Source: Euglena gracilis (taxonomy: Eukaryota). Taken from it: a DNA stretch of 64,000 nt. Every line of letters begins with the position of its first letter. The first letter of the stretch is position 1. The notes below the pieces were generated by a model that was not told the origin of the DNA, searched no databases, and was given only the letters and a program-made list of their open reading frames with translations. Location: contig CP154954.1 of assembly GCA_039621445.1 (NCBI GenBank), positions 9,054,634 to 9,118,633 of the forward strand. The letters are read 5' to 3'. Of this stretch, positions 346 to 27,390 are shown piece by piece. The translations under genes were made by a program, and so were the position numbers.

Positions 346-423
346 AAGTCCTGCTGGTGCAGGCAGAAGAAGTCCTGCTGGTGCAGGCAGAAGCTGAAGT
401 CCTGCTGGTGCAGGCAGAAGTCA
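346..423 (+). repeat. Three copies of AAGTCCTGCTGGTGCAGGCAGAAG
   Basis: Direct tandem copies read from the sequence. Confidence 0.85.
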
Positions 424-508
424 AGTACAAGTACAATACCAGAAGTCAAAGGTACAAGCTCAAGACAAGACATTCAAGAACCCAAGTCCTTGGGCTTCTC
501 AGCCCTTA

Positions 509-3500: not shown

Positions 3501-5104
3501 GATGGTACTTGGATGACGCCCATCTGCTGGGATCCCCAGCCCAACTGCACAATGCCCTTGCCTTCCTGATTCGCGAGGCAGCCGCGCTTGGGTTGGCCGT
3601 AAACCCTGCAAAATGTCGATTGTGGGGACCAGCGTTCACATCAACAGAAGGCGTCCCTTGCATTCCCCCTGGCACGCCACACGACAGCCCCTTACATCAA
3701 ATACCACTGACCGCCTTTGTTGCTGGTTCTGGTTTGAAAGTTTTGGGGGTCCCTGTCCACCACCCCCAAGATGACCGCTTCTGTGACGAAGTTTGGAATA
3801 AGCGCATTGCAGACATCCGACGTTCTTGCACAGTACTTCAGCACCTACCTCAATCGCATGTGCAATTCACCTTGCTTCGTTTTTGTTTATCTGCTTGCAA
3901 AGTGAATGACCTCTTGCGCGCCTGCAAAATCACCTCTGCAACAGCGGCATGCAAGACATTGTCGGGAATTATTCGGGAAACATTCAGTGGCATGGTCGGC
4001 TCCCCTTGCACTCCAGAAGAATGGTTGCAAGTTTCCCTGGCCATCAGATGCGGTGGACTGGGGATCTCGGATCCACTATTTCAACGTGTGCCAGCCAGAT
4101 TGTCTCAAGTGGTGGACTTCTGTCGAAGAGCTCCCTCTGTCTTGGGCCTGCCCGCTGCCTTGGACATCCTTCCCAAAGACACTGATGATTGTTTACGGGC
4201 AGCCCTCAATGAACTTGGTCAAATAGCCCCACTGCCACAATGGGCCACTGACAAAAATTTGATCCCTCAGGCACAGTCTCCACACAATTCACAACGTTGG
4301 TGGAATCAGCAGAGCATGCTTGCCCGCCAGAAAACACTTCGGGACACATTGAATGGACCTGATGCTGTACGCTTTGCAAGCCAATGCCAACCACACGCTA
4401 TGGCATGGGCCGCTTTGACACCATCTCAAGGACTCCGCACCCTGTTGCCCACGGCTGAATTCCGCTGCACAGTTCGTTGGTCCCTTGGAATGACTCTCAC
4501 ACCAATGGAATCCGATCCCAACCTCTGTCCCAAATGCTTTGGACAATCAGATTTTCTCGGACACCACCTCGTTTGCTGCAAATCAAACTTCATCACCCGG
4601 CGGCACGGGGCGGTACAAGATTTTCTGACAACCACAACACAGAAGGCAGGATTTACAGCCCGTAAAGAACAACGAGCTGATGACCGTTCCCGGCCTGGGG
4701 ATATCTTCATTCCTCGCTTGGACAGTGATGGACCCGTTGCAGTGGATGTGACAATCCGCCACACCCTTGCGCAAAGTCATCCGCTGCGAAGTGCAGTTTC
4801 ACAATGGCAAACACGTCAAGAGGCCGAAAAGCATGCCAAATATGATACAACATGCCAACGACTGGGCTGGCGGTTGACGCCATTCGTCATGCCACCCTCC
4901 TCAAGGCCCTTCTGGGGCAGCGGGAAGGGTGGCAGCGGCGGGCCGCAGAAGCAGACATTTGGCAAGGCCTGTCCTTCACACTTATCAGAGAAATCAGCAG
5001 ACAGCTCGTTTGGAGCTTGTATTCTTCCAAAGATGAGACCCTGTCTTCTGCCCACTCACCCTATTCTGTCATTCTGTCTCAAGGCCTTTGAGCACAAACT
5101 CTGA
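509..5104 (+). CDS. Non-LTR polyprotein: repetitive leader, 2A-like peptide, RT, Zn knuckle, RLE endonuclease (first in-frame ATG at 536; C-terminus shifts frame near 4890)
   Basis: RT motifs RPIAAGETLRRL, QCGVG, DFRNAFNSLSR, GAQQGDPCGP, WYLDD, LGVP and GGLG. Zn knuckle CPKC..HHLVCC. RLE motifs RHGAV, RPGDIF, VDVT and EKHAKY. The typical RLE tail (WQGLSFTLIRE) lies in the 4852-5091 frame, implying a small deletion. Confidence 0.9.
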   Translation: MVLLLQNFTMLLLAVLGLKRPPLLQGLKRPLQPLGLKRPPQFLGLQRPPQFLGLQRPPQFLGLQRPPQFLGLQRPPPLGLQRPPICQPLSGTFSSSVFFSVFCIASQTSDQLKWQTPSFHSTCYTKSSDTFCCSFDLTLRNILPPQPLSDTFCSSFDLTLKNILPPQQCPAKSLGLQRPPCDTISVCCTILPQWPAKALGLQRPPCDTFLSCCSILSQWPAKAMGLQRPPPDTIFALSLKSPRQTGKPCSSTFWTFWTATVAPQPDSTSTFWSATLAPQPASSAGFYWPATFPPQQNKPDNPQVPPPLTRRNHPTLAKQIKVLVPYVSAKDSTQPTLPASGGAGRGRSLLTCGDIESNPGPPTTPPSVPGEDIDMAPASQTSITPAAPPPAEHPSVSGEDVDMAPASQISIPPSAPPPAVPPLERGSWFPNLPGPLFFGQQGLPSMCSTVIMENPIGTQGPGPFPPSDVGAIWMQANQATPFLNFSNLPLGASSSSSVATTAAASSLALAGPPPTSVATTAVASSPAPARPPPTPIGQNHIAGVTPFSAPCPPSLHPTFEEISFDDRGTLVYLPRGALLNVNQTYLQLLRHFNREPGWETLHALWAFPKAVLCPLQRGGRSNWAMVGRKIADRARLYLIRPVFDSWLDSSLPQKPQGRQTRQKTALAAKATEERFLSRIESLVGHGAISKACRELTSEGVQNSNDPKVIQRLRDLHPPEPPPRIPVSDPSQTITFPSDPESTKERLQNLRKAIFGFPKESAPGPSGLRPDHLKAMVGDYPGACGDDLLEGLDTFICRAITNGVHPGMAPILSSARLTPLRKQNKQTAMEEDAFGNLVENTVCDEDTRPIAAGETLRRLVGKCLMRHPTVVNALKELSPPQCGVGVPNACPLIAMGIQQMVDTLHADRDNHWGLLQVDFRNAFNSLSREKILQSIRRRCPEVCPWLDSCYAQHSKLYCGNHCLPSQRGAQQGDPCGPAAFAWGVQDLCEGLSPLVEWQGWYLDDAHLLGSPAQLHNALAFLIREAAALGLAVNPAKCRLWGPAFTSTEGVPCIPPGTPHDSPLHQIPLTAFVAGSGLKVLGVPVHHPQDDRFCDEVWNKRIADIRRSCTVLQHLPQSHVQFTLLRFCLSACKVNDLLRACKITSATAACKTLSGIIRETFSGMVGSPCTPEEWLQVSLAIRCGGLGISDPLFQRVPARLSQVVDFCRRAPSVLGLPAALDILPKDTDDCLRAALNELGQIAPLPQWATDKNLIPQAQSPHNSQRWWNQQSMLARQKTLRDTLNGPDAVRFASQCQPHAMAWAALTPSQGLRTLLPTAEFRCTVRWSLGMTLTPMESDPNLCPKCFGQSDFLGHHLVCCKSNFITRRHGAVQDFLTTTTQKAGFTARKEQRADDRSRPGDIFIPRLDSDGPVAVDVTIRHTLAQSHPLRSAVSQWQTRQEAEKHAKYDTTCQRLGWRLTPFVMPPSSRPFWGSGKGGSGGPQKQTFGKACPSHLSEKSADSSFGACILPKMRPCLLPTHPILSFCLKAFEHKL
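556..1196 (+). repeat. Array of GGGCCT-GNRA-AGGCCC hairpins in 27-bp and 75-bp tandem units
   Basis: Units at 556, 583 and 610 have a GAAA loop. Units at 637, 664, 691, 718, 742, 1030, 1089, 1105 and 1163 have GCAA. The unit at 1180 has GCAG. Confidence 0.9.
1532..1591 (+). other. 2A-like (StopGo) peptide GAGRGRSLLTCGDIESNPGP
   Basis: Canonical D(V/I)ExNPGP motif, very close to T2A (EGRGSLLTCGDVEENPGP), in frame with the RT ORF. Confidence 0.85.
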
Positions 5105-7556
5105 ACCAAATAACCAACCTTGACTTGAACTCTCACCTGCCAAGTTTTTAACCCGTAGTTATCCCCTGAGCAGAGCAGAGCCACACGCCGAGCCAAAGAC
5201 AAATCCATGGATCACATACACACGCAGAGAAGCAAAACACAACAAAAGCCAAAACCCGACACAAACACGCCATTCGGTGGCATCCCCGCCCAATATATAT
5301 TGAAGGTGACCTTTGCTCATCTTCCGCTAACCACTGACCTCCACAACAAGTTCACAACTAGAGTAGGAACGGACGACAAGGGTAGGAAAAGTGAAAACCA
5401 AAGATTTTGTCATTTTACGAATGGAGCTTGAATGTGTCGAATTATCACAAAGTATTCACCAAGCATTGTCTTTATTTTTTCTCAACAATTTCTCGGATTA
5501 GCTTCAGGAGATTTCCAAATCCAAACTTTGAACACGACATTTTTGACAGTTGACACTCAGAAGAACTTCCAAAAAATAGTCGCATTAAACGTCCTTTGAC
5601 GGTTCGAGGAGCTTTTTCTTGGACAACACCGCGAAGGAGGGACTTTGTTTCCCCTCCGATCAGTGGTGAGCCAAGTGGTGGGAAATTGACAGGCGTTGCC
5701 CGTGGCGGAGCGAATAACAGATAAAGCAGGACGGGCGTGAAGGCGGGGGCGCCGAGCCCGCGCCAGCCCCGCCCTCGTGCCCAGGGCACAAGGGCGGGGC
5801 GGGCACGGGGCCTATGCGCTTTCGCTTTCGGGGGAGCGCCGCTACTTGACAGGCGTGTGGTGGCTGCCAAAAACGCTTTTGCCCCCCAGCCGTTTTTTTC
5901 ACCTCTCTTCCGACCCCATGGGGGCCCAAAAAATGGTTTTTCACGGGCGGGGAAGGTCGATTTTACGCACGATGTGCCACCCACTCGGGAAAATTTTTCG
6001 CAGATTTTCCCTCAAGATTCTCTCCGCCGGATGGAGACGTTGGCTGCGCCGGCAGGCACCGTTTTTTTTTCTCCCTCCCTTTGCTATATTTCCCTTTTTC
6101 TGACAGGTGTTTGCGCACAGTTTCTGGAACGCTTTGATTTGGGAAACCACTGGGGGTTTGTCGTGCGATTATTTTTTAGTAAGTTGTTTCGCTGTTGTTT
6201 TTTCGTCTTCCCCTTGCTGTCTTTTTCGGACATAAAACCCTGCAAAGTTCTCAAACCTAGTATGTATGTTCAAAGAAAATAACCCATGAACAAAGCCCCC
6301 CAAAAAACAATCCTGCAGTTCGGACAAAACATTTTAAAAAGCTGCGTTCACTGAGGATGAAAGGAAATGCTATCGCGATAGCCGTTCAAAAGAAACCCAA
6401 TTTGCACAAATAGCGCACACCCCAAAACACACCCAGAATGAAATGCAGAAAAATTCCAACATTTCAAACTTTTTTCCATGTCCAACTGAAAAATGTTTCA
6501 CAAACATTGTGCAGTGAAAACATGAAATTGAACTCTAATTCACACACAAGAAATTTGTTTCGAAAACACTCACACAGGAAAAATGACAGAGACACATTTG
6601 CAAAACACAACAATGCAGCAGAAAAAAAACAGGTGCTGTGTTCAATGCAGCAGTTACAAACAACGTTTACCTGCCTTGCTTCTCCTTCCCAAGTCATCAG
6701 AATTCTCCTGCTTCTCTGTTCTTAGTTTCTCTCAATTCAGCTGAGGAAAAGACATGCATCCAAACACACAATTGCACTGTTCACCCCCCGGCTTTTGACA
6801 ATTGTCAACAATAAACACACTCAATGTGTCAACTGTAATGTGACGTTAGCCACAAATGATGGCACAGAAAATACCCACAGAAAGAGGAAAACATGAACAG
6901 GCTTTGACAGAACCCATGATGCCACAGACATTTGACAGATGCAGATGCAGAGACAGATGCAACACAGACATTTGATGCAACAGCCACAGACATTTCATCA
7001 AAAAGTTTTTTGCTAACAGTGGAAAAGGTCAAAATAGCCAACTTTCACTGTAAATGATCATTTCACCAGAACAAAAACAAGAAGCAACAGGGATCATACC
7101 TTCAACTGCAAAGATGCTCTGCAAAAACAGCACAGTTCGCATTTTCTACAAAAATTCCGGATCTCAATGGTAAAACAAATTTCCATAGTAAAATAGTGCC
7201 TTTTATTGGTTGGGCCTGGATCTAGATGGGAAAAACAATCAGACAATCACAAACCTCTTGCTCTCTCTGACAATCACAAACCTCTGTGTGATTCTGCATC
7301 GCCGGCGGTCGCGGCCGCCCGTCTGACGAATGGGAACCCGATCTCCCGCTACCAGGCGAGTTACAGAGAAATTCAAATATCAGCGGGTGCAGTTTAGGAA
7401 TGCGCATCACATATCTGACGGGCGGCCGATCTGAGGTTTGGAGCCTTGCCCAAAGGCGCCGGAGCCATCAGCAGACGCTCAAGACGATTGGGAATCGGTG
7501 GACAAAGTTTCAGCCGAGTTCATCGATTCCCAACACTACCGTTCCCCAGAACTCGT

Positions 7557-7600
7557 GGATCCGCGAAGCAAGCGAAGACATGGGAATGGACAACACACCC
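7557..7600 (-). repeat. Split direct repeat B2
   Basis: Identical to 7789-7832. Confidence 0.9.
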
Positions 7601-7695
7601 AAAGGTGGCGGCAGCGTTCTTAGCTGGTCAGCTATCGTACAATACCTCAACGGGGACACGATGGAGCATCAGTGGTCAGCTGAGGTGGTGTGGAG

Positions 7696-7832
7696 AGTGT
7701 TCTTCCTTCGTGAAAGGCACTAGAGGGATAGTGGAGGGTATCTTTGATGCCTAATTGCCTGTCGCGGATCTGGCGATCAGAGATCGTAGGATCCGCGAAG
7801 CAAGCGAAGACATGGGAATGGACAACACACCC
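7696..7832 (-). repeat. Internal B1-A2 junction (B1 7789-7832, A2 7696-7792)
   Basis: A2 is identical to 13355-13451 and B1 is identical to 7557-7600. They overlap at GGAT. Confidence 0.9.
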
Positions 7833-7836
7833 GCCG

Positions 7837-9357
7837 TCATCCGTGGAGCATGCCGATGAGGCGGCAGCGGTGGAAGGATTGGCAGAGTGAGGCGAATCTG
7901 TCTTCGACTGATTGGTTTGGGAGTGATAGGTGGGGGGAGAGGTGCCATCGAGAGATTGGGTCGGCTGGTTGAATGGAGGAAGGGCACCATAGGAGATGGG
8001 CAGTGAGTTTGGTACGGATAATGAAGTTTAGCAAGCGGCGGAGGTCCTTACACAGGGATTGGTTTGACAGGGAGGGGGTAAAGTGGGAGAGGAGGTGCAG
8101 GGTGGAGACATTGTCACCAACAATGGTGCAAGGGTGGAGACCAGTGTTATAGGCGAAGTGGACGGCCTGTTCCAGGGCGAGTAACTCGGCACGTTGTTGG
8201 GAGATGGATGGGCAATGAATACGTTGGATGCGGCAGCCGACGGTTGGGCAGTAAAGGCCGATTTGGCAGCCGCTGGCGGAGATGGCGGCGTCGACGAAGA
8301 TCAGCGGGTTGAAGAAGGAAGGGGGGATGGCGTCGACAGCCTGCCATGGCGTAAGGCCTTGCAGGAGGAGGTGAAAGAGGGCCCGTCGGAGTTTGGGGAA
8401 AGCGTGGTCTATACGACCAAGGGTGTACTTTGTGAGGTACCACCCCCGAAGGAGCAGTGTTGTTCCGCGGTGTGGGCGGTGGTACCACAACATAAAGCCG
8501 GTGAGGCGGTCGATGACCTGGGGATGGAGGGGCATAAACGTGCAGAGAAGTGAGAGGGCGAGTGCTTTCTGCTCTGTGGCGGCGGTGTTTCCGATTGTTC
8601 GGTGGCAGAGGTTGAACACCTTTCCCAGCCATGTGATAGCCTGTGTGGGTAGGAGCGAGGATTTGGGGGAGATGAGGAGGTTGCATGATCGAAGGGTGGA
8701 GGTAATGGTATTGGTGACAAGGCTGCATAGGGTGTGCGATGGGGCGAGGATAAGAATGTCGTCATAATAGGTGAAGATGAAGAAGTGAGTGCCGTGGTGC
8801 AACGTGGGAGGGAGGGAGGAAACAGCGCGGTTAATAAGATCTTGGAGTGTGAGTTGGGCAAGTACAGGGGAAAGGTTCCAGCCAAACGGGAGGCAAGGGA
8901 AGTAGAAGGATGCGGTGCGGAAGGCGTATTTGGCAGCGGGGGGGAGTTCGAGGCTCCAGAAAAAGTTGGTTAAGTCGATGGTGGTGGCCCAGAGAGTGCC
9001 AGGGGGGAACCTGGAGATGGTTTCGGAGATATGGGACAGGGATGGGAGGTGGAAGGGGGGAGGCTCGGAAAAGGTGTTAGCCCAACGTAAGTCGGCAATG
9101 AAGCTGACTTTGCTGCTGTTTTTGGGGTGGATAAAGGAAGCAAGGTTGGAGAAGGGGTGGAAGTCCCCGGAGGGTGGTGGTAGGGGGAGGAGGAAACCGT
9201 CCCGTGCCAGGGAGTGAAGGAGGATCACGGTGAGTGGGGATGGGCGTCGTTGAAGGGAGGGTGGCGGCGGGTGTCGGAGGAGGGTGCGGATGAGGGTGGG
9301 GGGCACAACAGAATCCCAGATAGGTGGGGGGATGGCGTATGAGCCGCGTTGGCCCAA
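7837..9357 (-). CDS. Reverse transcriptase / RNase H (DIRS/VIPER type); true start may lie upstream
   Basis: RT motifs IADLRWAN, TIDLTNFFW, LPFGWNLSP, YYDDILIL and WLG. RNase H motifs FVDAA, QRAELLAL, VGDN and PADPISR. Confidence 0.92.
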   Translation of the reverse strand: MGQRGSYAIPPPIWDSVVPPTLIRTLLRHPPPPSLQRRPSPLTVILLHSLARDGFLLPLPPPSGDFHPFSNLASFIHPKNSSKVSFIADLRWANTFSEPPPFHLPSLSHISETISRFPPGTLWATTIDLTNFFWSLELPPAAKYAFRTASFYFPCLPFGWNLSPVLAQLTLQDLINRAVSSLPPTLHHGTHFFIFTYYDDILILAPSHTLCSLVTNTITSTLRSCNLLISPKSSLLPTQAITWLGKVFNLCHRTIGNTAATEQKALALSLLCTFMPLHPQVIDRLTGFMLWYHRPHRGTTLLLRGWYLTKYTLGRIDHAFPKLRRALFHLLLQGLTPWQAVDAIPPSFFNPLIFVDAAISASGCQIGLYCPTVGCRIQRIHCPSISQQRAELLALEQAVHFAYNTGLHPCTIVGDNVSTLHLLSHFTPSLSNQSLCKDLRRLLNFIIRTKLTAHLLWCPSSIQPADPISRWHLSPHLSLPNQSVEDRFASLCQSFHRCRLIGMLHG

Positions 9358-9617
9358 GCCGCGGAGCGCGAGTTCCTTGGGGGGTGGAAGGGTTGGGGTT
9401 ACTGTAGTATTTTAGTATGAGGAGGAGGAGCCAGTTGATGGAGAGGAGGGAGAAGAGGAGGGAGAGCAGGCGGCCAGTTGTCAGTTGTATGAGAGAATCC
9501 GTGCGCAGGTCGGTGAGGACGTGGAAGAGGAGGCGGAGGAGATGGTACAAGCATCGTCGGGAAACGGGGTGGGGTAAGGGGAGTTTTGAGAGTCGACCAG
9601 CGAGGCCCCACAGTGTA

Positions 9618-10727
9618 TTACGAGATGGTGGAAGGTCGCCGTCGTTTGTTGGATGTGGTTGGGGTTTGGGTAGGGAGGAAGGTGGGAGGGAAGAGGTCGC
9701 CCGGGATGATTGGGATGAAGGGTGTTGGTGCTCCGACTGTGGGGGGAGGTTGGGGAAAGAGCCATGGGACAGTAAGTTGGGGTTCGCTGTGTGCAGGTCC
9801 AATGTATTCCCGGGCTTGTCTTGGGTTCCTCCACCTGCACCAATCCATGATGGCTTCGAGGGGAACTCCGGATTGGGACATGATGCGGGCACAGGCCCGA
9901 CGGAGAGAGTGGAAGGGGAACCCAGCAGCAGCACACGTGTGCTGGAAGACCTGTTTGTAGTGGTGGTGGAGTGTGGCCGGCGGGCAGAAGGGTGAGTCTG
10001 TGGGTTCGGCGACTTCGTAGAGGAAGAGGAGCCAAGAAAGGGTGAAGGAGGTGAGGGTTCGGGTGGTGTCCGGGGAGAGTGGGGGGCGGACCTTGGCGGC
10101 GCGGAAGTGTATGGTTGGTGATGGGGAGGAGAAGAGGAGGGAAGAGCGGGAGAGTGAGGCGGCTTCACTGTAGCGCAGGCCGAGGGAAAGCGCCAAAATG
10201 GTGAGGCCGACAGTGCGGACGTCTTGCAGCGTGGACGGCCGTATTTGGGAAAAAGCCGATGGTGGGAACCACAAGCGGTCGGAGGGGACGTGGATGCGGT
10301 CGGCGGCGGAGGAGTACTTCCACCAGGCTGGTGGGAGGGTGAGGTCGAGCCAAGAAAGGGTGGAGAGGGCTTGGAGGGCGGAGAGGACACCGCGGATGTA
10401 GGAGGAGGCGTGGCCGGCCGCGGCAAGGTGCCCCAGGTAGAGCGGGACCAAGACCACGAGGTCAGTGTCCGGAGGATAGGTGTGTGAAAAGGAGAGGAGG
10501 GAATTGATACGGGAGCAGTACGTGCGTAGGGTGGAGGTGGACCAGTGCCATAGGAGGGCGTTTCCTGGCAGGGGGGTGCGGTCGGGCTGTGCGAGGTGGT
10601 CTTTGAGCTTAGTGAGGCTGAGGTGAGGGCGGAGATGGTGCAAGGAGGTATTGGTGGGGGGAGGGGGGCAGTTTGGGAGGGGGGAGGGGTATGCTGGGGG
10701 GGGGGTTGGGTTAGGGGGGGGGGACAC
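9618..10727 (-). CDS. Tyrosine recombinase
   Basis: Catalytic set present: LGLRYSEA (R), AAKVR (K), FHSLRR (HxxR), CRW (W) and REYI (Y). N-terminal STLRTY core-binding-like region. Confidence 0.92.
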   Translation of the reverse strand: MSPPPNPTPPPAYPSPLPNCPPPPTNTSLHHLRPHLSLTKLKDHLAQPDRTPLPGNALLWHWSTSTLRTYCSRINSLLSFSHTYPPDTDLVVLVPLYLGHLAAAGHASSYIRGVLSALQALSTLSWLDLTLPPAWWKYSSAADRIHVPSDRLWFPPSAFSQIRPSTLQDVRTVGLTILALSLGLRYSEAASLSRSSLLFSSPSPTIHFRAAKVRPPLSPDTTRTLTSFTLSWLLFLYEVAEPTDSPFCPPATLHHHYKQVFQHTCAAAGFPFHSLRRACARIMSQSGVPLEAIMDWCRWRNPRQAREYIGPAHSEPQLTVPWLFPQPPPTVGAPTPFIPIIPGDLFPPTFLPTQTPTTSNKRRRPSTIS

Positions 10728-10733
10728 AGCGAG

Positions 10734-11577
10734 TCATTTGTGGGTTTGAAGCTTGGGGCATTGCCAATGCCAGTGCCTGGGGCACGGGCAATTGGAGCAA
10801 TCCTTTGGGGGCGGAGAGGAGGTGGGCCAAAGCGTTCCCTCCCGGGTTTTGTAATACTCTGTTCCTTGGTGGAACGGAAAGTTGATGTGCCGTGTGGGGT
10901 TCGCCTTTCTGGGCGGAGGCTCCCATGAGGCAGGCGTCGGAGGCAGAGAAAGGGGCTGGACTGGACGGGGGCGCATGGGTTGGCTGTTGGGAGGAGGATG
11001 AGGAGGAGCGGTGCATGTGGGGTTGGTGTGGATCTGTGGTGAGTCGTGCGGCCGGTGAGGTGTAAGTGGCGCGGTAGCGAAAATAGGTGGAGATGAGGAG
11101 GCGCCAAACGGCGAGAAGGGTGTCGTCCTCGGTCATTCCCGAGAGGGAGCGCTCCAGGATGTCGCACAAGTCGGTCATCCAGGTCGGTCCGGGGTGGAGG
11201 GAGCGGAAAGCAGTGATGTTGGTTGGGGAGAGTGTGGCGGAGAGGCTTTCAAGGGTTGGGGGAGGTGGGTTTTGTGATGGTGCGGAAAGGGCGGCGACTT
11301 GCCGGCGCAGGGCCTCCAGTTCGTCCTCTTGGAAGGTCCACTGGAGCGCCTCAGGACCACGTTCAAGGGTGGCTCTTGTGAAGAGTTCGTATGCCGAGAG
11401 GTATTGGAGGGCGACATCGTGGTCCGGGGGTTGGCTGGGATCGGGGAAGAGGGAGGCGAACCAATGTTCACCCCAGGAGGCAGAACGGAGGAGAAGGTTT
11501 GTTTTGTGGCGGGCGATGTCTGTGGGGTTGACCCCTGTCATGAAAGGAGTGGCGGGCGGCATTTTGAAGGAATTCAT
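10734..11577 (-). CDS. Gag-like protein with CCHC zinc knuckle (frame change near 10980)
   Basis: Helical ORF from ATG 11577 (MNSFKMPP..QEDELEALRRQVAAL..). CSNCPCPRHWHWQC fits C-x2-C-x4-H-x4-C at about 10758-10799 in the 10734-10976 frame. Confidence 0.7.
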
Positions 11578-12505
11578 GGAAGGAGATGGGCCCGGGGTTC
11601 TGTTCAACGTCACCGCAGAGTAGGATGGGGGTGCCGTGTGGCGAAGTTTGAGGCATGTTAGGGGCGGATATGAGGGCGATGAACACGGGCCAAGGTGCCG
11701 GAGGTGCAGGGGAGCCGTCGGGGAAGAGGAAGCAGGGGGTGGTGTGGATGGTGATGAGCCTTGTGGCGGCGGTGGTGAGGTCGGTGAACCATTGAGCCTG
11801 GCTGAAAGGGAACAGAACCAGCGCGTGCGGTCGTTCGTGCAGGACTTTTTTGGTGACCAGGGGCAAGAGGTAGAAAGGTGGGTTGATCCAAAGGAAGCCC
11901 AGGTGGCTCCAGGTCCTGTTGAGGGCGGAGGAAGCTTCCGAGAAAAAGTTGGTGGTTTGTGCGTTGCTAGCTGAGGCGAAGAGGTCAAGGTCCGGTGGAG
12001 GGAGCGACCAGAAGTCCAGGATGCCCCAGAGGGGGGGGGGGCGGAAGACGAAGTGCCGGCTGGGGGGACCCGGGTTTGGTTGGATGTCTCCGCAGCGGAC
12101 GACCCAGTTCGGACCCCAGGTGACCTTCCAGAGGGTGAGGCCGTAGTTCCCAGGGGTGGCAGCCGGGGGAAAGTCATAGTGGTCGTGGCAGGGATTGGGG
12201 TCGTGGTGCTCGCCCCTTTTTTGGCATGCCGCCGGGGTGGGGGCGGGGGTCCTTCGCTCCCACCCATCCAGCATTTTTGGGAGGAGTCCGGCTAGAAGGC
12301 AGGCACAGAGGAGGTAGATCATTGATCTGGCAGACTGCAGTCCCATCACTGGCGGAGACAGGGCTTTTGCACAGGGTGGGGGGTGGGGGGGGAGGCCGCG
12401 GAGCCACTCCGACAGAAAGGTTGTTTGGGCAGGGGGGGGCCGAAGTTTCGGCAGAATACTTCGCAGGTCTTCCATTTCTTCATCACAAAGGGAAAGGGGA
12501 TCCAA
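11468..12505 (-). CDS. Dam-like N6-adenine DNA methyltransferase domain flanked by two 2A-like motifs
   Basis: DLDLFAS..NA and LWINPPF motifs, as in DIRS-type MT domains. VVRCGDIQPNPGP ends at 12065 and ILLCGDVEQNPGP ends at 11588. Confidence 0.85.
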   Translation of the reverse strand: MDPLSLCDEEMEDLRSILPKLRPPPAQTTFLSEWLRGLPPHPPPCAKALSPPVMGLQSARSMIYLLCACLLAGLLPKMLDGWERRTPAPTPAACQKRGEHHDPNPCHDHYDFPPAATPGNYGLTLWKVTWGPNWVVRCGDIQPNPGPPSRHFVFRPPPLWGILDFWSLPPPDLDLFASASNAQTTNFFSEASSALNRTWSHLGFLWINPPFYLLPLVTKKVLHERPHALVLFPFSQAQWFTDLTTAATRLITIHTTPCFLFPDGSPAPPAPWPVFIALISAPNMPQTSPHGTPILLCGDVEQNPGPISFHEFLQNAARHSFHDRGQPHRHRPPQNKPSPPFCLLG

Positions 12506-12624
12506 GCCAGTGGGGGAGGGGGGGGCGACTGAAATGGGGGAGGGGGGTGCAGAAGGCCCTGGGAGGGGGGGGGGTGGGGTTAGCCTGGTTAGGGAGGAAA
12601 TGATTCCTCAATTGTTCATATAAT

Positions 12625-13347
12625 TCAGCTGTAATTTGGATAGTGGGGGTGGGGTTGGGAGGTGGTGGTCCAGGGGGGGGGAGGGACATCCCGGCCAACA
12701 TCCCCACCGCAGGGGCCCACTGGGCCACAGGGGTGGGGAGGGCCGGGGGGGGGAGGGGGAAAGAAGGTGTGGAATGGCAGTGTGTGTGGTAGGTTGGTGT
12801 TGATGTAAGTTTGGGTGGGAAGGGGTGGTGCCAATTGTCTTTGCAGGGCCCGCAGGGCCTCTGTAATTGGGACAATTGGCACCACAGGTGGGGGGGGGAG
12901 GGGGGGGGGAGGGGGCACAAAACGGGGATGGCGATTGTAATGGGGAATGTGCTGGGGATGGGGGCGGTGTTCGTTTACGTCTCCTTTGCTTCCTTGGTTT
13001 CCAAACTCCGGGTTCTTCTTGCCAGCGCCAGGGTTTTGCTCCACAGCTTGGTTGTCGTGCTTCTTGGCTTGCCTTTGGGCTTTTTGCTTGCACACCTTGG
13101 TCAAATGTGGCTTTTTCTGGGATTGCTTGATTCCGGGTAATCGAACTCGGAGGGGGGCTGGTGCCAGCGCTTGCTTCAGCCGCCTTGCTCGACGCTTCTG
13201 GCTCCTGGTTTGGCCATCCTTTTGCGTGGCTGCCTGCTCTTGTCGCTTTCTCTCCACAATCTCTTCGATGGTCAGACTGGCGACGCTCGAAATGTCGGAT
13301 ATTGTTGAGAGTTCCTCGCTGTCACTTGACTTTCCAGTTTCAGGCAT
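12625..13347 (-). CDS. ORF1 of the YR element: basic/coiled-coil then proline-rich, probably continuing into the MT ORF through frameshifts in C runs
   Basis: ATG at 13347 just inside repeat A1. The overlapping ORFs 12483-12920 and 11468-12505 are separated by homopolymer tracts. Confidence 0.55.
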   Translation of the reverse strand: MPETGKSSDSEELSTISDISSVASLTIEEIVERKRQEQAATQKDGQTRSQKRRARRLKQALAPAPLRVRLPGIKQSQKKPHLTKVCKQKAQRQAKKHDNQAVEQNPGAGKKNPEFGNQGSKGDVNEHRPHPQHIPHYNRHPRFVPPPPPLPPPPVVPIVPITEALRALQRQLAPPLPTQTYINTNLPHTLPFHTFFPPPPPGPPHPCGPVGPCGGDVGRDVPPPPWTTTSQPHPHYPNYS

Positions 13348-13354
13348 CGTATTC

Positions 13355-13451
13355 AGTGTTCTTCCTTCGTGAAAGGCACTAGAGGGATAGTGGAGGGTAT
13401 CTTTGATGCCTAATTGCCTGTCGCGGATCTGGCGATCAGAGATCGTAGGAT
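13355..13451 (-). repeat. Split direct repeat A1 (5' end of element)
   Basis: Identical to 7696-7792. Confidence 0.9.
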
Positions 13452-14015
13452 TCGGGGACCCCTCCCCCAAATCCTACTGAGATTCGCGCCGCAGGAGGCG
13501 GCATCCAAAACAAGTTCACTCAGCTCCTTTGTACATTACACCCACAGTATAATCTACCCGCGACCTGTGGCGGTACAGGGAGTCACAAGGGGGTTCCTCT
13601 TGTGGCGAGGGCCAAAAGAGACGTTTCCCTGGGCCCGGGGCACGGTTTGGGTGAAGCTGTGCTACCCACCGTGTGATCAGACATAAAGAAAAGTTCACCA
13701 CCCCATTTTGAGTCGTTGAATTCTGGGTCCAACCACGCCTCCCATCAGCCGTTATTCCATTTCCAGAATCGGTCAAATTTCACATGCACTGAAATTTGAT
13801 GTTTGATGACAGTTGTTTCAACACTTGGACCAGTCTGGTTTGCAACAGGGGGACCTTGGGGTTTTCTGGATTTCTTTGTTTCAAACCAAAGGGACCAGTG
13901 ATTCTGTTTTTCCCATTCTCAACACTTGCCCATTTTAGCACATATTTGCCCAATATTTAGCACAATTGTTGAAGTTGTCTATGTTAGTTCCAAATTCAAC
14001 TTCTTCGCCAGTGGG

Positions 14016-15151: not shown

Positions 15152-16164
15152 GTTACTCCTTCGCTAAACGACCCCCACCCAGAATTTTACAAGTCGGCCT
15201 TGGAAAAGAATAAAAATAAAAACAGGGTTAGGGTTAGGAGTAGGGTTAGGGTTCGGGTTGGGTCAGGGTCAGGGTGGGGTTAGGGTCAGGGTGCATCGCA
15301 CAATGACGTGATAAATTGGCCCCTACAGGGTACCAGCTGCCCCCGGGGGGGGGGGGGGCTGGGACCCCCCCCCCCAAAATCTGGCCCGTTAAAGGCAATT
15401 TTCAAAAATTTTCGGCGCGTCGCGCCGAAAAGGTATACCCAGCGCCTCCGGCGCGCCCCCCCCCCCCCCCCCCCCCCCGGGGGGGGGTTTGGCCCGGACC
15501 CCCCCACCCCCCCCCCCTCCCCCCCCGGGGGGGGGGGGGGGTAAGGTGACTTAAAAAGAAGCCTGATTATGACACTATTTAAAGGAGTAGGGTTGGGGTT
15601 AAGAGTCTCATGCAACCAGTTGAACCATTCCCACTCAGCTTCGTTATATTGGCCTCTAGCGAACCCAAAGAGCCGCCCAACCAGGGTTGACCAACATGGG
15701 TGGACCCGAGCAAGGCGCCGAAGGCAGAGCGAGGGTCCACCCATGTGTATTAACCCTGGTTGGGCGGGTCTTTGGGGGGGTCCCGCGCCACCCTGGGTGG
15801 GTGGGGGGGGACCCCCCTCCCCCCCGGGGGTCTTAAAAAGAAGCCTGGTCATAATACCACATTTTGGGGCTCAAGGGGGCTTCCTTGTCCACATGGGTGG
15901 AACGGCTATATACTGAAAAAAATAGACACTCAGACAGTGTACACAGTACACGGAGCGGGGCGGACAAGGAGCCCCACCGGGCATTCACTGAGGTGGGCGG
16001 GCGGTTTGACGGTTTCGGCACACGGCCACGTACGGGAAAAACGGGTGGCGCGGACTTTACAACCCACAACGGACACACTCTGAAAATCTTCTGCACGGAG
16101 GGTTGTTGGGGGGGAGAACCGGCTTGTCATTTTGGAGGTGGGGGTCATTTAGCGAAGGAGTGCC
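15152..16164. mobile_element. Same-family MITE in tandem, with nested inserts, TTAGGG-like repeats and an SL-gene fragment
   Basis: TIRs GTTACTCCTTCGCTAAACGACCCCCACC and GGTGGGGGTCATTTAGCGAAGGAGTGCC, with CACTTTT on both sides. Confidence 0.7.
15870..15938 (-). pseudogene. Decayed spliced-leader RNA gene (exon plus start of intron); 3' limit approximate
   Basis: Minus strand reads ACTGTCTGAGTGTCTATTTTTTTCA|GTATATAGCCGTT: an SL exon with two substitutions and one T fewer, followed by a GTATA donor. Confidence 0.8.
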
Positions 16165-16216
16165 CACTTTTGAGGGGACTAAGTTCATCAACAGCGTTTG
16201 CCCGTGAACAATAGTG

Positions 16217-16655
16217 GGTACTTGTCTGTTATCGTACGACATACCCCCCCCCTTTTGGTTATGGTACGACACCCATTTTTTGGGTTATTTAGGGTTAATT
16301 AAAGGTATAGGGTTAGGTGCGCACATGCCATGTTGCGCTACATGGCCACGTTGCGCTACATGGCCATGTTGCGCTACATGGCCATGTAGCGCAACATGGC
16401 TGTGTAGCGCAACATGGCCATTAGCGCACCTAACCCTACTCCTTCAATAGCCCCATAATAGCGCTACATGGCCTTGTAGCGCAACCTGGCTGTGTAGCGC
16501 AACGTGGCCGTGTAGCGCAACATGGCCATGTAGCGCAACGTGGCCATTAGCGCCTAACCCTATTCCTTTAAATAACCCTAAAACAACTCAAAAAACAGGT
16601 GTCGTACCATAACCAAAAGGAGGGGGGTTATGTCGTACGATAACAGACAAGTACC
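16217..16655. mobile_element. Foldback MITE with GG..CC termini and 8-bp TSD (Merlin-like)
   Basis: TIR GGTACTTGTCTGTTATCGTACGACATA. TSD CAATAGTG at 16209-16216 and 16656-16663. Internal 18-bp GTTGCGCTACATGGCCA repeats in both orientations. Confidence 0.85.
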
Positions 16656-18485
16656 CAATAGTGTTTACCCCTACAACAGTGTTTACCTAAAGACTTGCAC
16701 ACAAAAAAATTTTTCACAGAGGATTTTTGTGGCAGCCGTAACCCTGGCTGTGCCCTGCGTTGAAGTCCTGAACAAACGCAACATTTATTAACCCCCCAGA
16801 TTGGCAGTTCGGGTTAGGGTCAGTGTTAGGGTTTGGGCTCGTTGCGGGAAATTGGTGTTGGATTTTGGTGGTCGCCAGCGACTGTTGGTGATGGCCTAGC
16901 TACCATTGGTGATTGGGCCGACCAGACGACCACCAATAATTACTCCCCCCCCCAAAACAGTTTCCAGGCCCCCTCCCCCAAAAAAATCAAACAAATATGA
17001 AGGAAAATGACTCAAAACCCACCCAAATGCCTTCAAAAACCTCCATTCGGGGGGTCAATTTGTAAAAAAAAAAATTGGGTAGTGAGTTCTTTTTGGGCTG
17101 TTCTGCTGAAGGCGCCTGTGCAAGCTGCCGCTGCACAACAAAATCCCCTTCTGTGTGCAAGGCAACAATGGCCGAATCGAGCTCCCTGGTGAACTTAGTC
17201 GGCCAACGGTCTCCGCCTCCCCCCCCCCCCACACGGACACCCCCACCCTCCAACAGCAAAATACCCTTGTGTGTGCAAGGCAACGATGGCCAACCATGGC
17301 TCCGTGATGAACTTAGTTGGCCAACGGCCTCCTCCTGCCCCCCCCACGGACGCCCCACCCTCCAATGGCAATATCCCCTTGTGTATGCAGGGCAACGCTG
17401 GCCGAATTGCCATCCCTGATGAAGGGTCAGGGTTAGGCAGCGGTGGGATAGTAACAGTAATAGTAATAGGATAGTAATAGTAAATAGATGATAATGCGAA
17501 ACAGTACCGATGTATTATAACATTCCGATTATTTTCCCCGGTGGAATATTTCCCCCCCACTTTTCGCCCGAAAACAGAAAAGTTGGACCTGGGTGATTAT
17601 TCCCCCCCCCAAATTTTTCAGATGATCCGGATGGTAGACAAACTCAAAGCCAGTACACAGGCTGTGCTTGACTCACTTGCGGCGAGGGCGCAGTTTGCAA
17701 GCTGTGCATCCAGCTGCGCAGATCGGCAGCCGGAGCGTCGTCATGACACTCGGCGTCAAGGCCGTCGTCAATGTCAACCTCCTCCCCCTGCCCCTGCCCA
17801 GAAATTTGGTTAGATGAAGAAGCGGAGTCTGCAGGAGGTAAACCCGGGCGATTATTCCCCCGCCTCCTAGTTTTCGGCTCCGTGGGGGGGGGGGTAGAAT
17901 CAAAAATTGATAGTACCAGGCATGCCCCCTCATGCATGGACCATGCTGCCCGCTGGATGTCACTTTGCGAAAATGGCACCTGAATTTACACCCCCGCCCC
18001 TTCAAAAACCAAATTGTGCCTCTTATCCCTCATCAGACAAAGAAAAATTGGTACTTGTTCGCCACTCGACCGCCACCTCCAAAATGACAAGGCAGTTTCC
18101 TTGAGCCCAGAAACGGGGTGTTATGGTGTTATTTGAAGAACAGGGTAGGGTTGTGACATGCCCAGCCAAATGCTCGGCTGCCGAAGGGCAGGGCAGAACG
18201 GGAATCGGCCAAACAGCCAGGGTGGGGGGGGGTCGACCACCCCCCCCCCCCACCACCTCTTACATCCACCACAGGATTTTCACTGGATTTTGACCAGAAA
18301 ATTTTTTGAAAATCACTTTGAAAAATGAACCCCAAACATGTGATTTTTTGATGGAAAACCACATTTTTTTTCAAAAAAAAATCTCAAAAATTTCAGGGTT
18401 AAAAATTGGTAGTTTTCAGGAGGGGGGTGAAAAAAATGCAGGTCAAAAAAAAGTGGACCAAATTTTGGCACAGTCAAATTTTACT

Positions 18486-18520
<35 letters not shown>

Positions 18521-18792
18521 TTCTCTTTGAATTTTTTTGGACTTTCAATGGCATTTTTTTTTTGCTTCAAAAACCTCTCAAAATCAATGTTGAATTGTTG
18601 AAGGTGTGAAAAAATGGGGTTTTGAGGGGGTTTTGGAGGGACCTCCCATACCATGGTATATACCATGGTATGGGTCCCAAAATGGGTCAAAAAAACACCC
18701 GGCGCCGGAAAGTTTTGGGTCCAAAAATTGGTGCTCCCGGAAATACGGTCAGAATCCGGTGAAAATGCTGTGGTGGGTGGGGGGGTTGACCC

Positions 18793-19133
18793 CAGGGTTC
18801 GACATAAGGAGGGCGTACACGGTTTAGGTGGCGGGGTGTCCCCCCCCCCCCCCCCCCCCCCCCTCCTGGCCCGTAGGGGGGACCGGACCGACCCGGGACC
18901 CCCCCCCCCAAAGGTCAATTTCTTCCTCCGGCGCTTCGCGCCAGAGTTTTTTGGTAATTTTCTGCCATTGACCTGATGAAAAAACACAATGTGCTGCTTG
19001 CTCTTTGATTTCGCTGGATGTCAAATTTTTGGCCCGGCTCTTCGCACCGGGCCGAAAACCGGTCACCCGGACCACGTTTAGGTGGGGGGGGGGGTCCGGA
19101 CCCCCCCCCCACCTGTCCTTATATCGAACCCTG
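18793..19133. mobile_element. hAT-like MITE
   Basis: TIRs CAGGGTTCGACATAAGGA and TCCTTATATCGAACCCTG. Flanks GTTGACCC and GTCGACCC match at 7 of 8 positions. Confidence 0.8.
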
Positions 19134-19208
19134 GTCGACCCCCCCCCACCAGGCCCTCCTGTTCTGCCCTGCCAGAGGGTCACGGTGAGAGGTGCGGTTG
19201 GGGTTTTA

Positions 19209-22671: not shown

Positions 22672-22744
22672 GGTCTTGATTCCACTTGTGTTTGTGATCC
22701 TCAGACTGTGGTCACGCCCTTTGATCCTGGCCATCATTTGCCAG
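22672..22744 (+). CDS. Exon 2 of the four-TM protein (LVLIPLVFVILRLWSRPLILAIICQ)
   Basis: Completes TM2, supplies the basic loop and starts TM3. Both flanks pair with distant intron ends and the frame is preserved. Confidence 0.85.
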
Positions 22745-27338: not shown

Positions 27339-27390
27339 TTTTGTTCATCCCAATGGTCAAGGGGTTGTTGCTCAGAAAGGGCCTGGCCGG

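What the first reader, a model, noticed from the sequence alone, without database searches (positions are those of the whole stretch)
11588..12120. N6-MTase domain bracketed by two 2A-like StopGo motifs upstream of gag in a YR retrotransposon
Seen: ...VVRCGDIQPNPG|P, then a roughly 150-aa DLFAS/NPPF domain, then ILLCGDVEQNPG|P, all in one frame. Established: D(V/I)ExNPGP causes ribosomal skipping, 2A motifs are known in APE-type non-LTR elements such as trypanosome L1Tc, and in DIRS1/PAT the MT lies after RNase H. Inference: this element, in which I see no protease motif, uses two 2A sites to release a free MTase from an ORF1-MT-gag polyprotein, making a portable 2A-MT-2A cassette. The first motif has Q in place of the canonical E and may be only partly active.
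Basis: partly seen in the sequence, partly recalled or inferred. Interest (0 to 1): 0.88.

Follow-up and report, generated by a model that had tools for sequence, protein, structure and literature searches.

The report
StopGo-bracketed methyltransferase in recombinase retrotransposon
A jumping gene that lacks a protease carries a small DNA-methylase module flanked by two virus-style "ribosome skipping" signals, and the same layout recurs in many distant relatives, so the element probably releases the enzyme as a separate protein during translation.

Summary
One open frame (11468-12607) reads VVRCGDIQPNPGP, then a Dam-like methyltransferase (Pfam PF05869, above its cut-off), then ILLCGDVEQNPGP. 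This sits 5' of a gag-like protein, a tyrosine recombinase and RT/RNase H, within split direct repeats (about 7547-13454).

Chance does not explain it: the full motif occurred in 0 of 500 dinucleotide shuffles. Conservation is the main support. Of 150 cluster representatives found with a family profile, 20 have a methyltransferase next to the gag N-terminus, and all 20 carry GD(V/I)ExNPGP between them. The upstream site is usually present too, but it is looser (Q or H in 8 of 36 sites, against 0 of 34 downstream).

The same 2A-MT-2A unit heads ORFs that match the N-terminal, pre-RT part of the window's second element, a non-LTR-like RT ORF. Gypsy and Copia relatives, most with a detected protease, carry the methyltransferase without 2A. 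One subfamily holds a Euglena gracilis transcript.

The window copy itself is broken by private indels. Recoding and methylase activity are untested. In the papers I could search I found no report of 2A sites in tyrosine-recombinase retroelements or around their methyltransferase. I rate it a new variant of known kinds.

The parts
13355..13454 (-). Terminal direct repeat A1 (5' end of the element).
   Evidence: 100 nt, 99% identical to 7696-7795 (family D14). 97 nt are 100% identical by blastn.
12628..13347 (-). N-terminal ORF segment, in a different frame from 2A-MT-2A in this copy. The candidate start Met is at 13345-13347. It holds a near-2A remnant, AVEQNPGAG, at 13021-13047.
   Evidence: Frames; coordinates. 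Weak positional similarity to the N-terminus of P0011 (pairwise E 0.002, 58 aa). In P0011, P0004 and P0157 a long N-terminal part is in frame with the 2A-MT-2A-gag unit.
12131..12607 (-). Leader region in frame with the first 2A. It includes a hydrophobic stretch, SMIYLLCACLLAGLL, at 12281-12325.
   Evidence: P0001. Mean Kyte-Doolittle score of 1.87 over 19 aa.
12065..12130 (-). Upstream 2A/StopGo-like site, WKVTWGPNWVVRCGDIQPNPG|P. It has Q at the canonical Glu position.
   Evidence: The same GDIQPNPGP occurs at the upstream site of P0002 and P0028.
11591..12067 (-). Predicted released methyltransferase: 159 aa, starting with Pro and ending ...NPG. It is Dam-like, with D-x-F and N-P-P-F motifs.
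   Evidence: Pfam Dam PF05869, 34.1 bits against a 28.1 cut-off. AlphaFold2 model: pLDDT 89.3, pTM 0.82; the last ~20 residues score about 60. VIA-align gives PCIF1/CAPAM 6irx Z 11.3, E. coli Dam 2ore Z 9.0 and T4 Dam 1q0s Z 8.7.
11588..11644 (-). Downstream 2A/StopGo site, SPHGTPILLCGDVEQNPG|P, fully canonical.
   Evidence: GD.E.NPGP is invariant in 14 of 14 aligned sequences. A 2A is present in 20 of 20 MT-plus-gag representatives.
10734..11590 (-). gag-like protein with a C-terminal CX2C...HWHWxC knuckle (10758-10799). In this copy it is split over three frames, with breaks near 11530 and between about 10909 and 10875.
   Evidence: tblastn of P0002 and P0004 hits three frames; alignment A2. 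The dominant form in runs X1, X17 and X18 differs in length from the window copy exactly at 11551, and in X1 and X17 at 10909 and 10875.
9618..10733 (-). Tyrosine recombinase ORF. It has no Met in its first ~300 codons and, in this copy, follows the gag stop codon in the same frame.
   Evidence: Pfam Phage_integrase PF00589, E 4e-8, 33.7 bits against a 27.1 cut-off. Frames.
7837..9411 (-). Reverse transcriptase (YYDD at 8743-8769) and an RNase H-like region.
   Evidence: Pfam RVT_1, E 7.8e-13; RVT_3 weak, E 0.036. Coordinates.
7547..7832 (-). 3' terminal repeat block: B1 (7778-7832), A2 (7696-7795), a 95-nt spacer, and B2 (7547-7600). This is a split-direct-repeat layout.
   Evidence: The B copies are 55 nt and 94.5% identical.

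Best explanation
The locus is a slightly decayed copy of a multi-copy tyrosine-recombinase (DIRS-order) retrotransposon, probably of a euglenid.

In intact family members the first ORF is a polyprotein: an N-terminal protein, then 2A, then a ~160-aa Dam-like adenine methyltransferase, then 2A, then a gag-like protein with a zinc knuckle.

Inferred mechanism. At each ...GD(V/I)(E/Q)xNPG|P the ribosome releases the nascent chain after Gly and resumes at Pro (StopGo). Three separate proteins then come from one ORF without a protease. The methyltransferase is freed with an N-terminal Pro and a ~20-residue disordered 2A tail.

The MT-gag site is strictly canonical and is probably efficient. The upstream site is relaxed (Q here; Q or H in other subfamilies). 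It may skip only partly, giving both a tethered and a free methyltransferase.

Shown: the motifs, the frame, the Dam-like fold and catalytic N-P-P-F, the element anatomy, the conservation of both sites in relatives, and the same unit ahead of sequence like the window's non-LTR-like ORF.

Inferred: that skipping happens, that the freed protein methylates adenine (substrate unknown, perhaps cDNA or an RNA:DNA hybrid), and the host.
For: Motifs and frame. Dam family above the Pfam cut-off. The confident model has an N6-adenine-methyltransferase-like fold, and its 2A tail is modelled with low confidence.

Relatives P0002 (49% identity) and P0003 (35%) have leader-2A-MT-2A-gag in one frame. A profile search of 1.84 billion representatives gave 2135 hits at E<=1e-3 and listed 150. 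Of those 150, 67 carry NPGP. They hold 102 sites, of which 84 fit xD[VI]ExNPGP.

Of 25 representatives with both MT and gag matches, 20 have the gag N-terminus adjacent to MT, and 20 of 20 have a 2A between them. In the 14-sequence alignment the second site is invariant, and the first has N-P in 13 of 14 and G-P in 14 of 14.

Residue at the Glu position: upstream sites are E27/Q4/H4/A1 of 36; downstream sites are E34 of 34.

The MT occurs without NPGP in the Gypsy and Copia relatives P0110, P0111, P0120, P0132 and P0141. A protease was detected in P0120 and P0141.

The cassette heads proteins (P0028, P0057) whose downstream part matches the pre-RT region of the window's 398-5104 RT ORF.

On the MT tree the 2A-flanked state needs 11 changes, against a mean of 29.9 in shuffles (0 of 500 shuffles as low). 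Kinship inflates this figure.

In three DNA runs the dominant form differs in length from the window copy at the frame breaks, which puts MT-2A-gag-knuckle in one frame.

E-to-Q does not ablate recoding in FMDV 2A (Odon 2013, PMC3708506, section 8). An F2A fusion gave resistant, GUS-positive Euglena (PMC8230907, passages read).
Against: No experiment here shows skipping.

The window copy has at least three frame breaks and cannot make the polyprotein.

In saturation mutagenesis in human cells, no substitution at E14 reached a score of 0.6 except E14H in P2A. The Q site may therefore be weak (Baral 2026, bioRxiv 10.64898/2026.09.24.754024, section 24).

A 2026 screen reports that most retrotransposon 2A-like peptides reduced protein abundance in human cells instead of cleanly skipping (PMC13405545, passages read).

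Eukaryotic retrotransposon Dam domains gave no rise in 6mA when expressed in E. coli (Fernandez-Moreno 2026, bioRxiv 10.64898/2026.05.21.726589, section 9).

The upstream site has decayed in P0006. By a crude flank window, 29 of 54 MT representatives with both flanks assessable have no 2A at all. Most of these belong to other contexts, and that window also misfiled P0004, P0005 and P0059.

No full-length relative's DNA could be fetched. That YR and RT follow gag in relatives is therefore shown only for this family's own copies.
Confidence: 0.72

Rival explanations
1. The 2A-like motifs act mainly as translational attenuators, by ribosome stalling or drop-off that lowers the output of downstream gag, and not as separators. 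The methyltransferase would then work mostly as part of a fusion protein.
For: PMC13405545 (passages read) reports that 70% of ORF1p-associated and 59% of ORF2p-associated 2A-like peptides tested in human cells fell in a 'reduction' class. The relaxed upstream site (Q or H) would fit a tuning role.
Against: The MT-gag site is strictly canonical in 34 of 34 downstream sites. It resembles the efficient viral class. Gypsy and Copia relatives with the same MT dispense with 2A, which fits a processing role. Attenuation and separation are not mutually exclusive.
Confidence: 0.15
2. The motifs are inert relics carried in when a 5' segment of a non-LTR element recombined into a recombinase element. 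They persist by descent and have no function.
For: The same cassette occurs ahead of sequence like the window's non-LTR-like ORF, and the window holds such an element with its own 2A at 1538-1591. Fernandez-Moreno 2026 notes chimeric or nested elements in Euglena.
Against: The motif is kept in 20 of 20 MT-gag cluster representatives. The library holds one representative per 50%-identity cluster, and aligned members are 26-51% identical to P0002, while the flanking sequence has diverged. A nine-residue motif would not survive that without selection.
Confidence: 0.08
3. It is a chance or compositional artefact of a proline-rich, C-rich coding strand, or an assembly chimera of two elements.
For: The coding strand is very C-rich (GC skew +0.46 on the + strand). 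Two or more NPGP arose in 19 of 500 shuffles.
Against: The full motif arose in 0 of 500 shuffles. Single-frame relatives come from independent sources. The stretch is held in 20 runs of 15 studies, with contigs that bridge the MT and its flanks.
Confidence: 0.02

Closest known systems
2A-like sites in APE-type non-LTR retrotransposons (L1Tc, Ingi, CR1, L2, Rex1, Crack; Odon et al. 2013, PMC3708506)
   Same: The same GD(V/I)ExNPGP recoding motif, used inside a protease-less retroelement ORF to split off an N-terminal part. Variation at the Glu residue is also seen there.
   Different: Those elements have, as reported, one site in the N-terminal region of ORF2p (once in ORF1p). Here the element is a tyrosine-recombinase retrotransposon. 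Two sites bracket an enzyme domain in the gag-encoding ORF, and relatives have up to five sites (P0038).
[quoted passage not shown] 2026, bioRxiv 10.64898/2026.05.21.726589)
   Same: The same truncated Dam-like domain with a catalytic Asn-Pro-Pro, in a recombinase retroelement. The window also holds a chromodomain Gypsy element with a weak Dam hit, and a Dam+DNMT ORF, like that paper's Euglena 'EpiLTRs'.
   Different: Here it lies upstream of gag and is flanked by 2A sites. The preprint's main text never mentions 2A, NPGP or self-cleaving.
VIPER-like elements of kinetoplastids (PMC6681497)
   Same: The ORF order gag, YR, RT/RH (the VIPER order is recalled, not read here) and A1...B1-A2-B2 split direct repeats (repeat pattern from PMC6681497 passages). 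The host is euglenozoan, if the euglenid assignment is right.
   Different: No MT and no 2A are reported for VIPER in the passages read. RT phylogeny was not tested here.
Picornaviruses with several 2A(NPGP) sites (for example aalivirus A1)
   Same: Several StopGo sites in one polyprotein release small internal proteins. The family profile hit the aalivirus A1 polyprotein through the motif.
   Different: Those are RNA viruses that also encode proteases. There is no homology outside the motif.
SymbioDIRS-Dnmt3 of dinoflagellates (de Mendoza et al. 2018, PMC5890265)
   Same: A DIRS-like element that has captured a DNA methyltransferase, with shuffled ORF order.
   Different: That enzyme is a C5 cytosine methyltransferase inside pol. 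No 2A is reported in the passages read.

Membership tests
2A/StopGo recoding site, class A: (G/H)D(V/I)ExNPGP | C-terminal motif D(V/I)ExNPG|P, preceded by G. | tested here: met
   The downstream site CGDVEQNPGP fits fully. The upstream site CGDIQPNPGP fits except for Q at the Glu position.
2A/StopGo recoding site, class A: (G/H)D(V/I)ExNPGP | It lies inside a continuous ORF, with functional protein on both sides. | tested here: met
   P0001 is open across both sites. Intact relatives are open from the N-terminus to the gag knuckle.
2A/StopGo recoding site, class A: (G/H)D(V/I)ExNPGP | Co-translational separation of the upstream and downstream products. | not testable with these tools
   This needs a reporter assay or proteomics. 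Only conservation speaks for it (20 of 20).
DIRS-order (tyrosine-recombinase) retrotransposon | RT/RNase H plus a tyrosine recombinase, with no DDE integrase and no protease. | tested here: met
   Pfam finds RVT_1 and Phage_integrase. No rve or protease family appears in the six element ORFs scanned at E<=1.
DIRS-order (tyrosine-recombinase) retrotransposon | Characteristic terminal repeats: inverted repeats plus an internal complementary region, or split direct repeats A1...B1-A2-B2. | tested here: met
   A1 13355-13454 = A2 7696-7795. B1 7778-7832 = B2 7547-7600, with a 95-nt spacer between A2 and B2.
DIRS1-like / PAT-like superfamilies | The methyltransferase domain lies in the pol ORF, after RNase H. 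| tested here: not met
   The RT/RH ORF ends at 7837 with no Dam hit. The only Dam hit of the element is in the 5' ORF, upstream of gag. The defining feature itself is recalled knowledge.
VIPER-like superfamily | ORF order gag, YR, RT/RH. | tested here: met
   On the minus strand the order is gag 10734-11590, YR 9618-10733, RT/RH 7837-9411. That this order defines VIPER is recalled knowledge.
VIPER-like superfamily | The RT groups with VIPER/TATE in phylogeny. | not tested
Eukaryotic retroelement Dam family (Pfam PF05869-like) | A profile match above the curated threshold. | tested here: met
   34.1 bits against 28.1, E 2.7e-8.
Eukaryotic retroelement Dam family (Pfam PF05869-like) | A catalytic Asn-Pro-Pro followed by an aromatic residue, on a class I methyltransferase fold. 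| tested here: met
   WINPPF at 11873-11890. In 48 sequences P64 is invariant, and N62 and P63 are conserved in at least 90%. The model has pLDDT 89.3. E. coli Dam scores Z 9.0 (rmsd 3.4, 109 aligned) and T4 Dam Z 8.7 (rmsd 2.9, 105 aligned). The best match is the N6-adenosine methyltransferase 6irx: Z 11.3, rmsd 2.7, 128 aligned.
Eukaryotic retroelement Dam family (Pfam PF05869-like) | Adenine N6-methylation activity. | not testable with these tools
   The published heterologous assays of relatives were negative (Fernandez-Moreno 2026, section 9).

The most novel reading that the evidence does not exclude
In euglenid genomes StopGo sites may serve as module boundaries for protease-less retroelements. 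On this reading, a self-contained 2A-MT-2A cassette has moved between tyrosine-recombinase and non-LTR-like elements, and the methyltransferase appears without 2A where an LTR-type element supplies processing. The two sites would also be tuned differently: a strict MT-gag site, and a leaky Q/H upstream site that yields both a tethered and a free methyltransferase. That would make recoding efficiency a regulator of how much free DNA/RNA-modifying enzyme the element releases.
Probability: 0.35. Interest if true: 0.78.

Novelty: new variant of a known kind. Interest (0 to 1): 0.64.

Why it matters
2A/StopGo recoding in cellular genomes has been tied almost entirely to non-LTR retrotransposons, usually as one N-terminal site. 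If this reading holds, it extends to the tyrosine-recombinase order. It also shows a multi-site, virus-like polyprotein strategy in which an enzyme domain is excised on both sides.

It offers a concrete answer to how protease-less DIRS-type elements could free individual proteins. It also reframes the unexplained methyltransferase of these elements as a free ~18-kDa enzyme, which can be expressed and assayed in that exact form. Published assays of related eukaryotic Dam constructs were negative.

The family supplies about a hundred natural 2A variants from one lineage, including Q and H variants at the key Glu. It is also a natural test of whether recoding efficiency is tuned site by site.

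Tried and rejected
Genome and earlier notes. No whole genome is held for the window. There are no earlier notes on this genome. The two Naegleria PAT-like notes found by words did not bear on this finding.

DNA of relatives. The search for related loci found nothing in metagenome contigs with alignment A3 or with P0152, and nothing in viral contigs. No relative's DNA context could therefore be read.

Word-indexed protein searches. With the family alignment these were swamped. The 'longer' search gave only a picornavirus polyprotein, matched through the motif. The 'near' search gave only P0002 and P0155.

Other protein resources. The ESM Atlas gave no usable hit for P0011. A PDB sequence-profile search with the MT alignment gave 0 hits at E<=1. 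Foldseek against PDB gave no hit at E<=0.001, although all the top weak rows were methyltransferases.

RNA genes. Rfam and tRNA scans of the window found nothing.

RNA evidence. No RNA holder was listed. When about 5% of one RNA run (X24) was laid, 126 reads laid, almost all on the G-rich low-complexity stretch 12722-12918, and 98% of what was laid ran on into unlike sequence. This says nothing about expression of the coding parts.

Hydrophobic anchor idea. A hydrophobic stretch ahead of the first 2A is not general. It is present in 2 of 17 assessable representatives, plus P0157 and the window copy.

N-terminal ORF homology. Similarity between the window's N-terminal ORF and P0011 is weak (pairwise E 0.002).

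Crude flank window. One search undercounted upstream 2A sites: P0004, P0005 and P0059 were misfiled. I rely instead.

Literature. No paper holds NPGP together with 'tyrosine recombinase' or '2A-like' together with DIRS. In a six-term search the 40 papers listed of 836 had no DIRS co-occurrence. Of the 10 papers listed (13 found) with Euglena and '2A peptide', the titles and abstract starts concern tools or unrelated topics; only PMC8230907 was opened. The supplementary contig tables of Baral 2026 and Fernandez-Moreno 2026 could contain such elements unremarked.
Full report
WHAT IS THERE

The feature lies on the minus strand. Translating window:11468-12607:- gives one open 379-aa frame, P0001. 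It reads ...VVRCGDIQPNPG|P, then a ~160-aa domain with DLDLFAS and WINPPF, then ...ILLCGDVEQNPG|P. Exact coordinates: 2A-1 at 12065-12130, the predicted released domain at 11591-12067, and 2A-2 at 11588-11644.

Pfam assigns the domain to Dam (PF05869): E 2.7e-8, 34.1 bits against a curated 28.1.

An AlphaFold2 model built on a 48-sequence alignment is confident (pLDDT 89.3, pTM 0.82). Only the last ~20 residues, the 2A tail, score about 60.

An all-against-representatives structure search puts N6-adenine methyltransferases on top:
- cap-specific adenosine methyltransferase 6irx: Z 11.3, rmsd 2.7, 128 aligned;
- E. coli Dam 2ore: Z 9.0;
- T4 Dam 1q0s: Z 8.7.

Foldseek alone found nothing at E<=0.001, though its weak rows were all methyltransferases.

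IS IT MORE THAN CHANCE?

The window has three NPGP in six frames, against 0.6 expected from mononucleotide shuffles. All three sit in CGD(I/V)(E/Q)xNPGP. On the C-rich, proline-rich sense strand of the element, two or more bare NPGP arose in 19 of 500 dinucleotide shuffles. The full D[VI][EQ]xNPGP arose in 0 of 500.

THE ELEMENT

Reading the minus strand from 13454 down to 7547, the parts are:
- repeat A1 (13355-13454);
- an N-terminal ORF segment starting at a Met (13347);
- the leader, 2A, MT and 2A frame;
- a gag-like protein ending in a CX2C...HWHWxC knuckle (10758-10799);
- a tyrosine recombinase (9618-10733; Phage_integrase, E 4e-8);
- RT/RNase H (7837-9411; RVT_1, E 7.8e-13);
- repeats B1, A2 and B2 (7547-7832).

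None of the six element ORFs scanned hit a protease or a DDE integrase family.

The layout is that of a DIRS-order retrotransposon with split direct repeats and the gag, YR, RT/RH order. That order I recall as VIPER-like. The repeat pattern agrees with passages of PMC6681497.

The methyltransferase is not after RNase H, as it is in DIRS1/PAT (recalled). It lies in the 5' ORF.

THIS COPY IS BROKEN

The MT-2A frame closes at 11468. gag continues in a second frame from about 11529, and its knuckle lies in a third frame.

I laid contigs from three DNA runs. The dominant form in those runs differs in length from the window copy exactly at these breaks:
- 4 bases at 11551, at all depth in X1, X17 and X18;
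- 1 base each at 10909 and 10875, in X1 and X17.

By frame arithmetic, these differences put MT, 2A, gag and the knuckle into one frame. Further length differences lie at 10610, 9923 and 9378.

The stretch is held in 20 runs from 15 studies, under three coded organism labels. Word depth is high throughout, so this is a multi-copy family.

RELATIVES

A word-indexed search with residues 150-345 of P0001 found two proteins from independent sources: P0002 (49% identity) and P0003 (35%). Both read leader-2A-MT-2A-gag-knuckle in one frame.

A profile built from these and the window pieces was run against 1.84 billion cluster representatives. It gave 2135 hits at E<=1e-3, 271 at <=1e-10 and 22 at <=1e-30; the best 150 were listed. 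Among those 150:
- 67 carry at least one NPGP.
- 102 sites in 65 proteins have at least 5 residues before them. 84 fit xD[VI]ExNPGP and 93 fit xD[VIL][EQH]xNPGP.
- With local HMMs, 122 have the MT domain and 25 have both MT and a gag match. In 20 of those 25 the gag N-terminus adjoins the MT, and all 20 have a 2A between them.
- The other five (P0041, P0045, P0061, P0066, P0082) match only the knuckle part of the gag profile. Four of them carry a 2A further downstream; P0045 has no NPGP. Only P0041 has a detected RT.
- Of 11 gag-only fragments with room upstream, 8 begin just after a 2A.

In a 14-sequence alignment, GD.E.NPGP of the downstream site is invariant. At the upstream site G-P is invariant and N-P is present in 13 of 14; P0006 has decayed there. 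The catalytic D..F and N-P-P columns are invariant.

THE TWO SITES DIFFER

At the canonical Glu position, the 36 upstream-of-MT sites read E27, Q4, H4, A1. The 34 downstream sites read E34. The preceding Gly is kept in 31 of 36 upstream sites and 34 of 34 downstream sites. The window's GDIQPNPGP recurs verbatim at the upstream site of P0002 and P0028.

The literature bears on this as follows:
- Odon et al. 2013 state that E-to-Q is the one point change at this residue that did not ablate recoding in FMDV 2A (PMC3708506, section 8).
- Baral et al. 2026 found that no E14 substitution scored above 0.6 in human cells, except E14H in P2A at 0.85 (bioRxiv 10.64898/2026.09.24.754024, section 24).

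A leaky upstream site and a tight downstream site is therefore a reasonable reading. It is untested.

A MOVABLE UNIT?

Pfam scans of the long hits show the same MT in several kinds of element:
- Copia: P0110 (integrase, MT, RT).
- Gypsy: P0111, P0120, P0132, P0141.
- RT-only ORFs: P0041, P0077.

The Gypsy and Copia relatives have no NPGP. A protease was detected in P0120 and P0141.

P0028 and P0057 read N-terminal protein, 2A, MT, 2A, a short region, 2A, and then sequence that matches the N-terminal, pre-RT part of the window's other retroelement. That element is a 1568-aa RT ORF at 398-5104 (+). I read it as non-LTR-like from the sequence, and it has its own 2A at 1538-1591. The matches are P0028 aa 580-1124 to nt 1520-3157 (E 3e-32) and P0057 aa 751-1025 to nt 2042-2827 (E 2e-15).

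A quick, poorly resolved MT-domain tree of 91 rows gives these results:
- It groups the window's MT with P0002 (support 96).
- It puts P0028, P0057 and P0077 in a supported 26-row clade, 19 rows of which have 2A. That clade lies next to the gag-context proteins P0008, P0009, P0011 and P0033.
- It places most 2A-less, LTR-context MTs elsewhere.
- The 2A label needs 11 changes, against 29.9 in shuffles (0 of 500 shuffles as low).

Relatedness alone inflates such clustering. This is therefore consistent with a cassette that travels with its 2A sites, but it is not proof.

HOST

All close relatives are unnamed metagenome or run-assembly proteins. One exception: the 90%-identity cluster of P0008 holds a EukProt Euglena gracilis transcript fragment (P0156). 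It matches the N-terminus of P0157.

P0157 is an intact 1057-aa polyprotein. It has a cold-shock-like N-terminus (Pfam CSD, E 1.8e-4, below cut-off), a long hydrophobic stretch, 2A, MT, 2A, and gag with a knuckle.

The window's other contents match the Euglena 'DAM-LTR' and 'EpiLTR' elements described by Fernandez-Moreno et al. 2026:
- a chromodomain Gypsy element with a weak Dam hit;
- an ORF with both C5-DNMT and Dam hits.

A euglenid host is thus likely, but inferred.

NOVELTY

Known already:
- 2A sites in non-LTR retrotransposons (Odon 2013).
- Dam-like MTs in DIRS and LTR elements, including those of Euglena (Fernandez-Moreno 2026).
- A recent note that 2A peptides occur in diverse reverse-transcribing elements, about 79% of them non-LTR-like (Baral 2026, section 31).

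I found no report of 2A sites in tyrosine-recombinase retroelements or flanking their methyltransferase:
- Searches for NPGP with 'tyrosine recombinase', and for '2A-like' with DIRS, gave 0 papers.
- The main texts of four 2A surveys mention no methyltransferase and no recombinase element.
- The DAM preprint never mentions 2A, NPGP or self-cleaving.

Supplements were closed, so unremarked examples may sit in their tables.

VERDICT

It is a new variant that combines two known kinds.

Noticed in passing
window 398-5104 (+), 2A at 1538-1591: A 1568-aa RT ORF (RVT_1, E 1.8e-11) that looks non-LTR-like to me, with a cysteine-rich, endonuclease-like C-terminus by eye. It carries a canonical GRGRSLLTCGDIESNPGP about 380 aa from its start, after 27-nt and 75-nt tandem repeats. 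Relatives P0028 and P0057 have the 2A-MT-2A unit ahead of the homologous region.
   Followed up: partly
window 50893-58746 (-): An LTR retrotransposon with 300-nt, 100% identical LTRs (50893-51192 and 58447-58746). It has protease, a weak Dam hit (E 5.5e-4) between protease and RT, then RT/RNase H, integrase and a chromodomain. It has no NPGP. It resembles the Euglena DAM-LTR class of Fernandez-Moreno 2026.
   Followed up: partly
window 60984-62033 (+): An ORF with both a C5 cytosine methylase hit (E 4e-6) and a Dam hit (E 3.5e-11), like the dual-methylase 'EpiLTR' described for Euglena.
   Followed up: no
window 13021-13047 (-): AVEQNPGAG in the N-terminal ORF shares VEQNPG with the second 2A but ends in A instead of P. 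It may be a decayed third StopGo site.
   Followed up: no
window 9618-10736 (-): The recombinase ORF has no Met in its first ~300 codons and, in this copy, follows the gag stop codon in the same frame. In run X1 a 1-base length difference at 10610 would put it in another frame. The RT ORF also lacks an early Met, and a 2-base difference at 9378 in three runs would extend it upstream. How YR and RT are translated is unresolved.
   Followed up: partly
window 12281-12325 (-); P0157 residues ~470-570: A hydrophobic, membrane-helix-like stretch lies upstream of the first 2A in the window copy, P0011, P0134 and P0157, but in only 2 of 17 assessable representatives. It could make the released N-terminal protein tail-anchored in some subfamilies.
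   Followed up: partly
window 15442-30346, several places (e.g. 18841-18907, 29265-29331): Repeated units of long C-runs and G-runs around short palindromes. RNA reads from run X24 laid only on such a G-rich stretch inside the element (12722-12918).
   Followed up: no
window 16317-16571: An array of 18-nt units (GCGCTACATGGCCATGTT-like) in direct and inverted orientation, forming a large imperfect palindrome.
   Followed up: no
P0038 (587 aa), P0014 (997 aa): Relatives with five and three 2A sites respectively in one ORF. In P0014 the MT is reduced to a short C-terminal remnant between two 2A sites.
   Followed up: no
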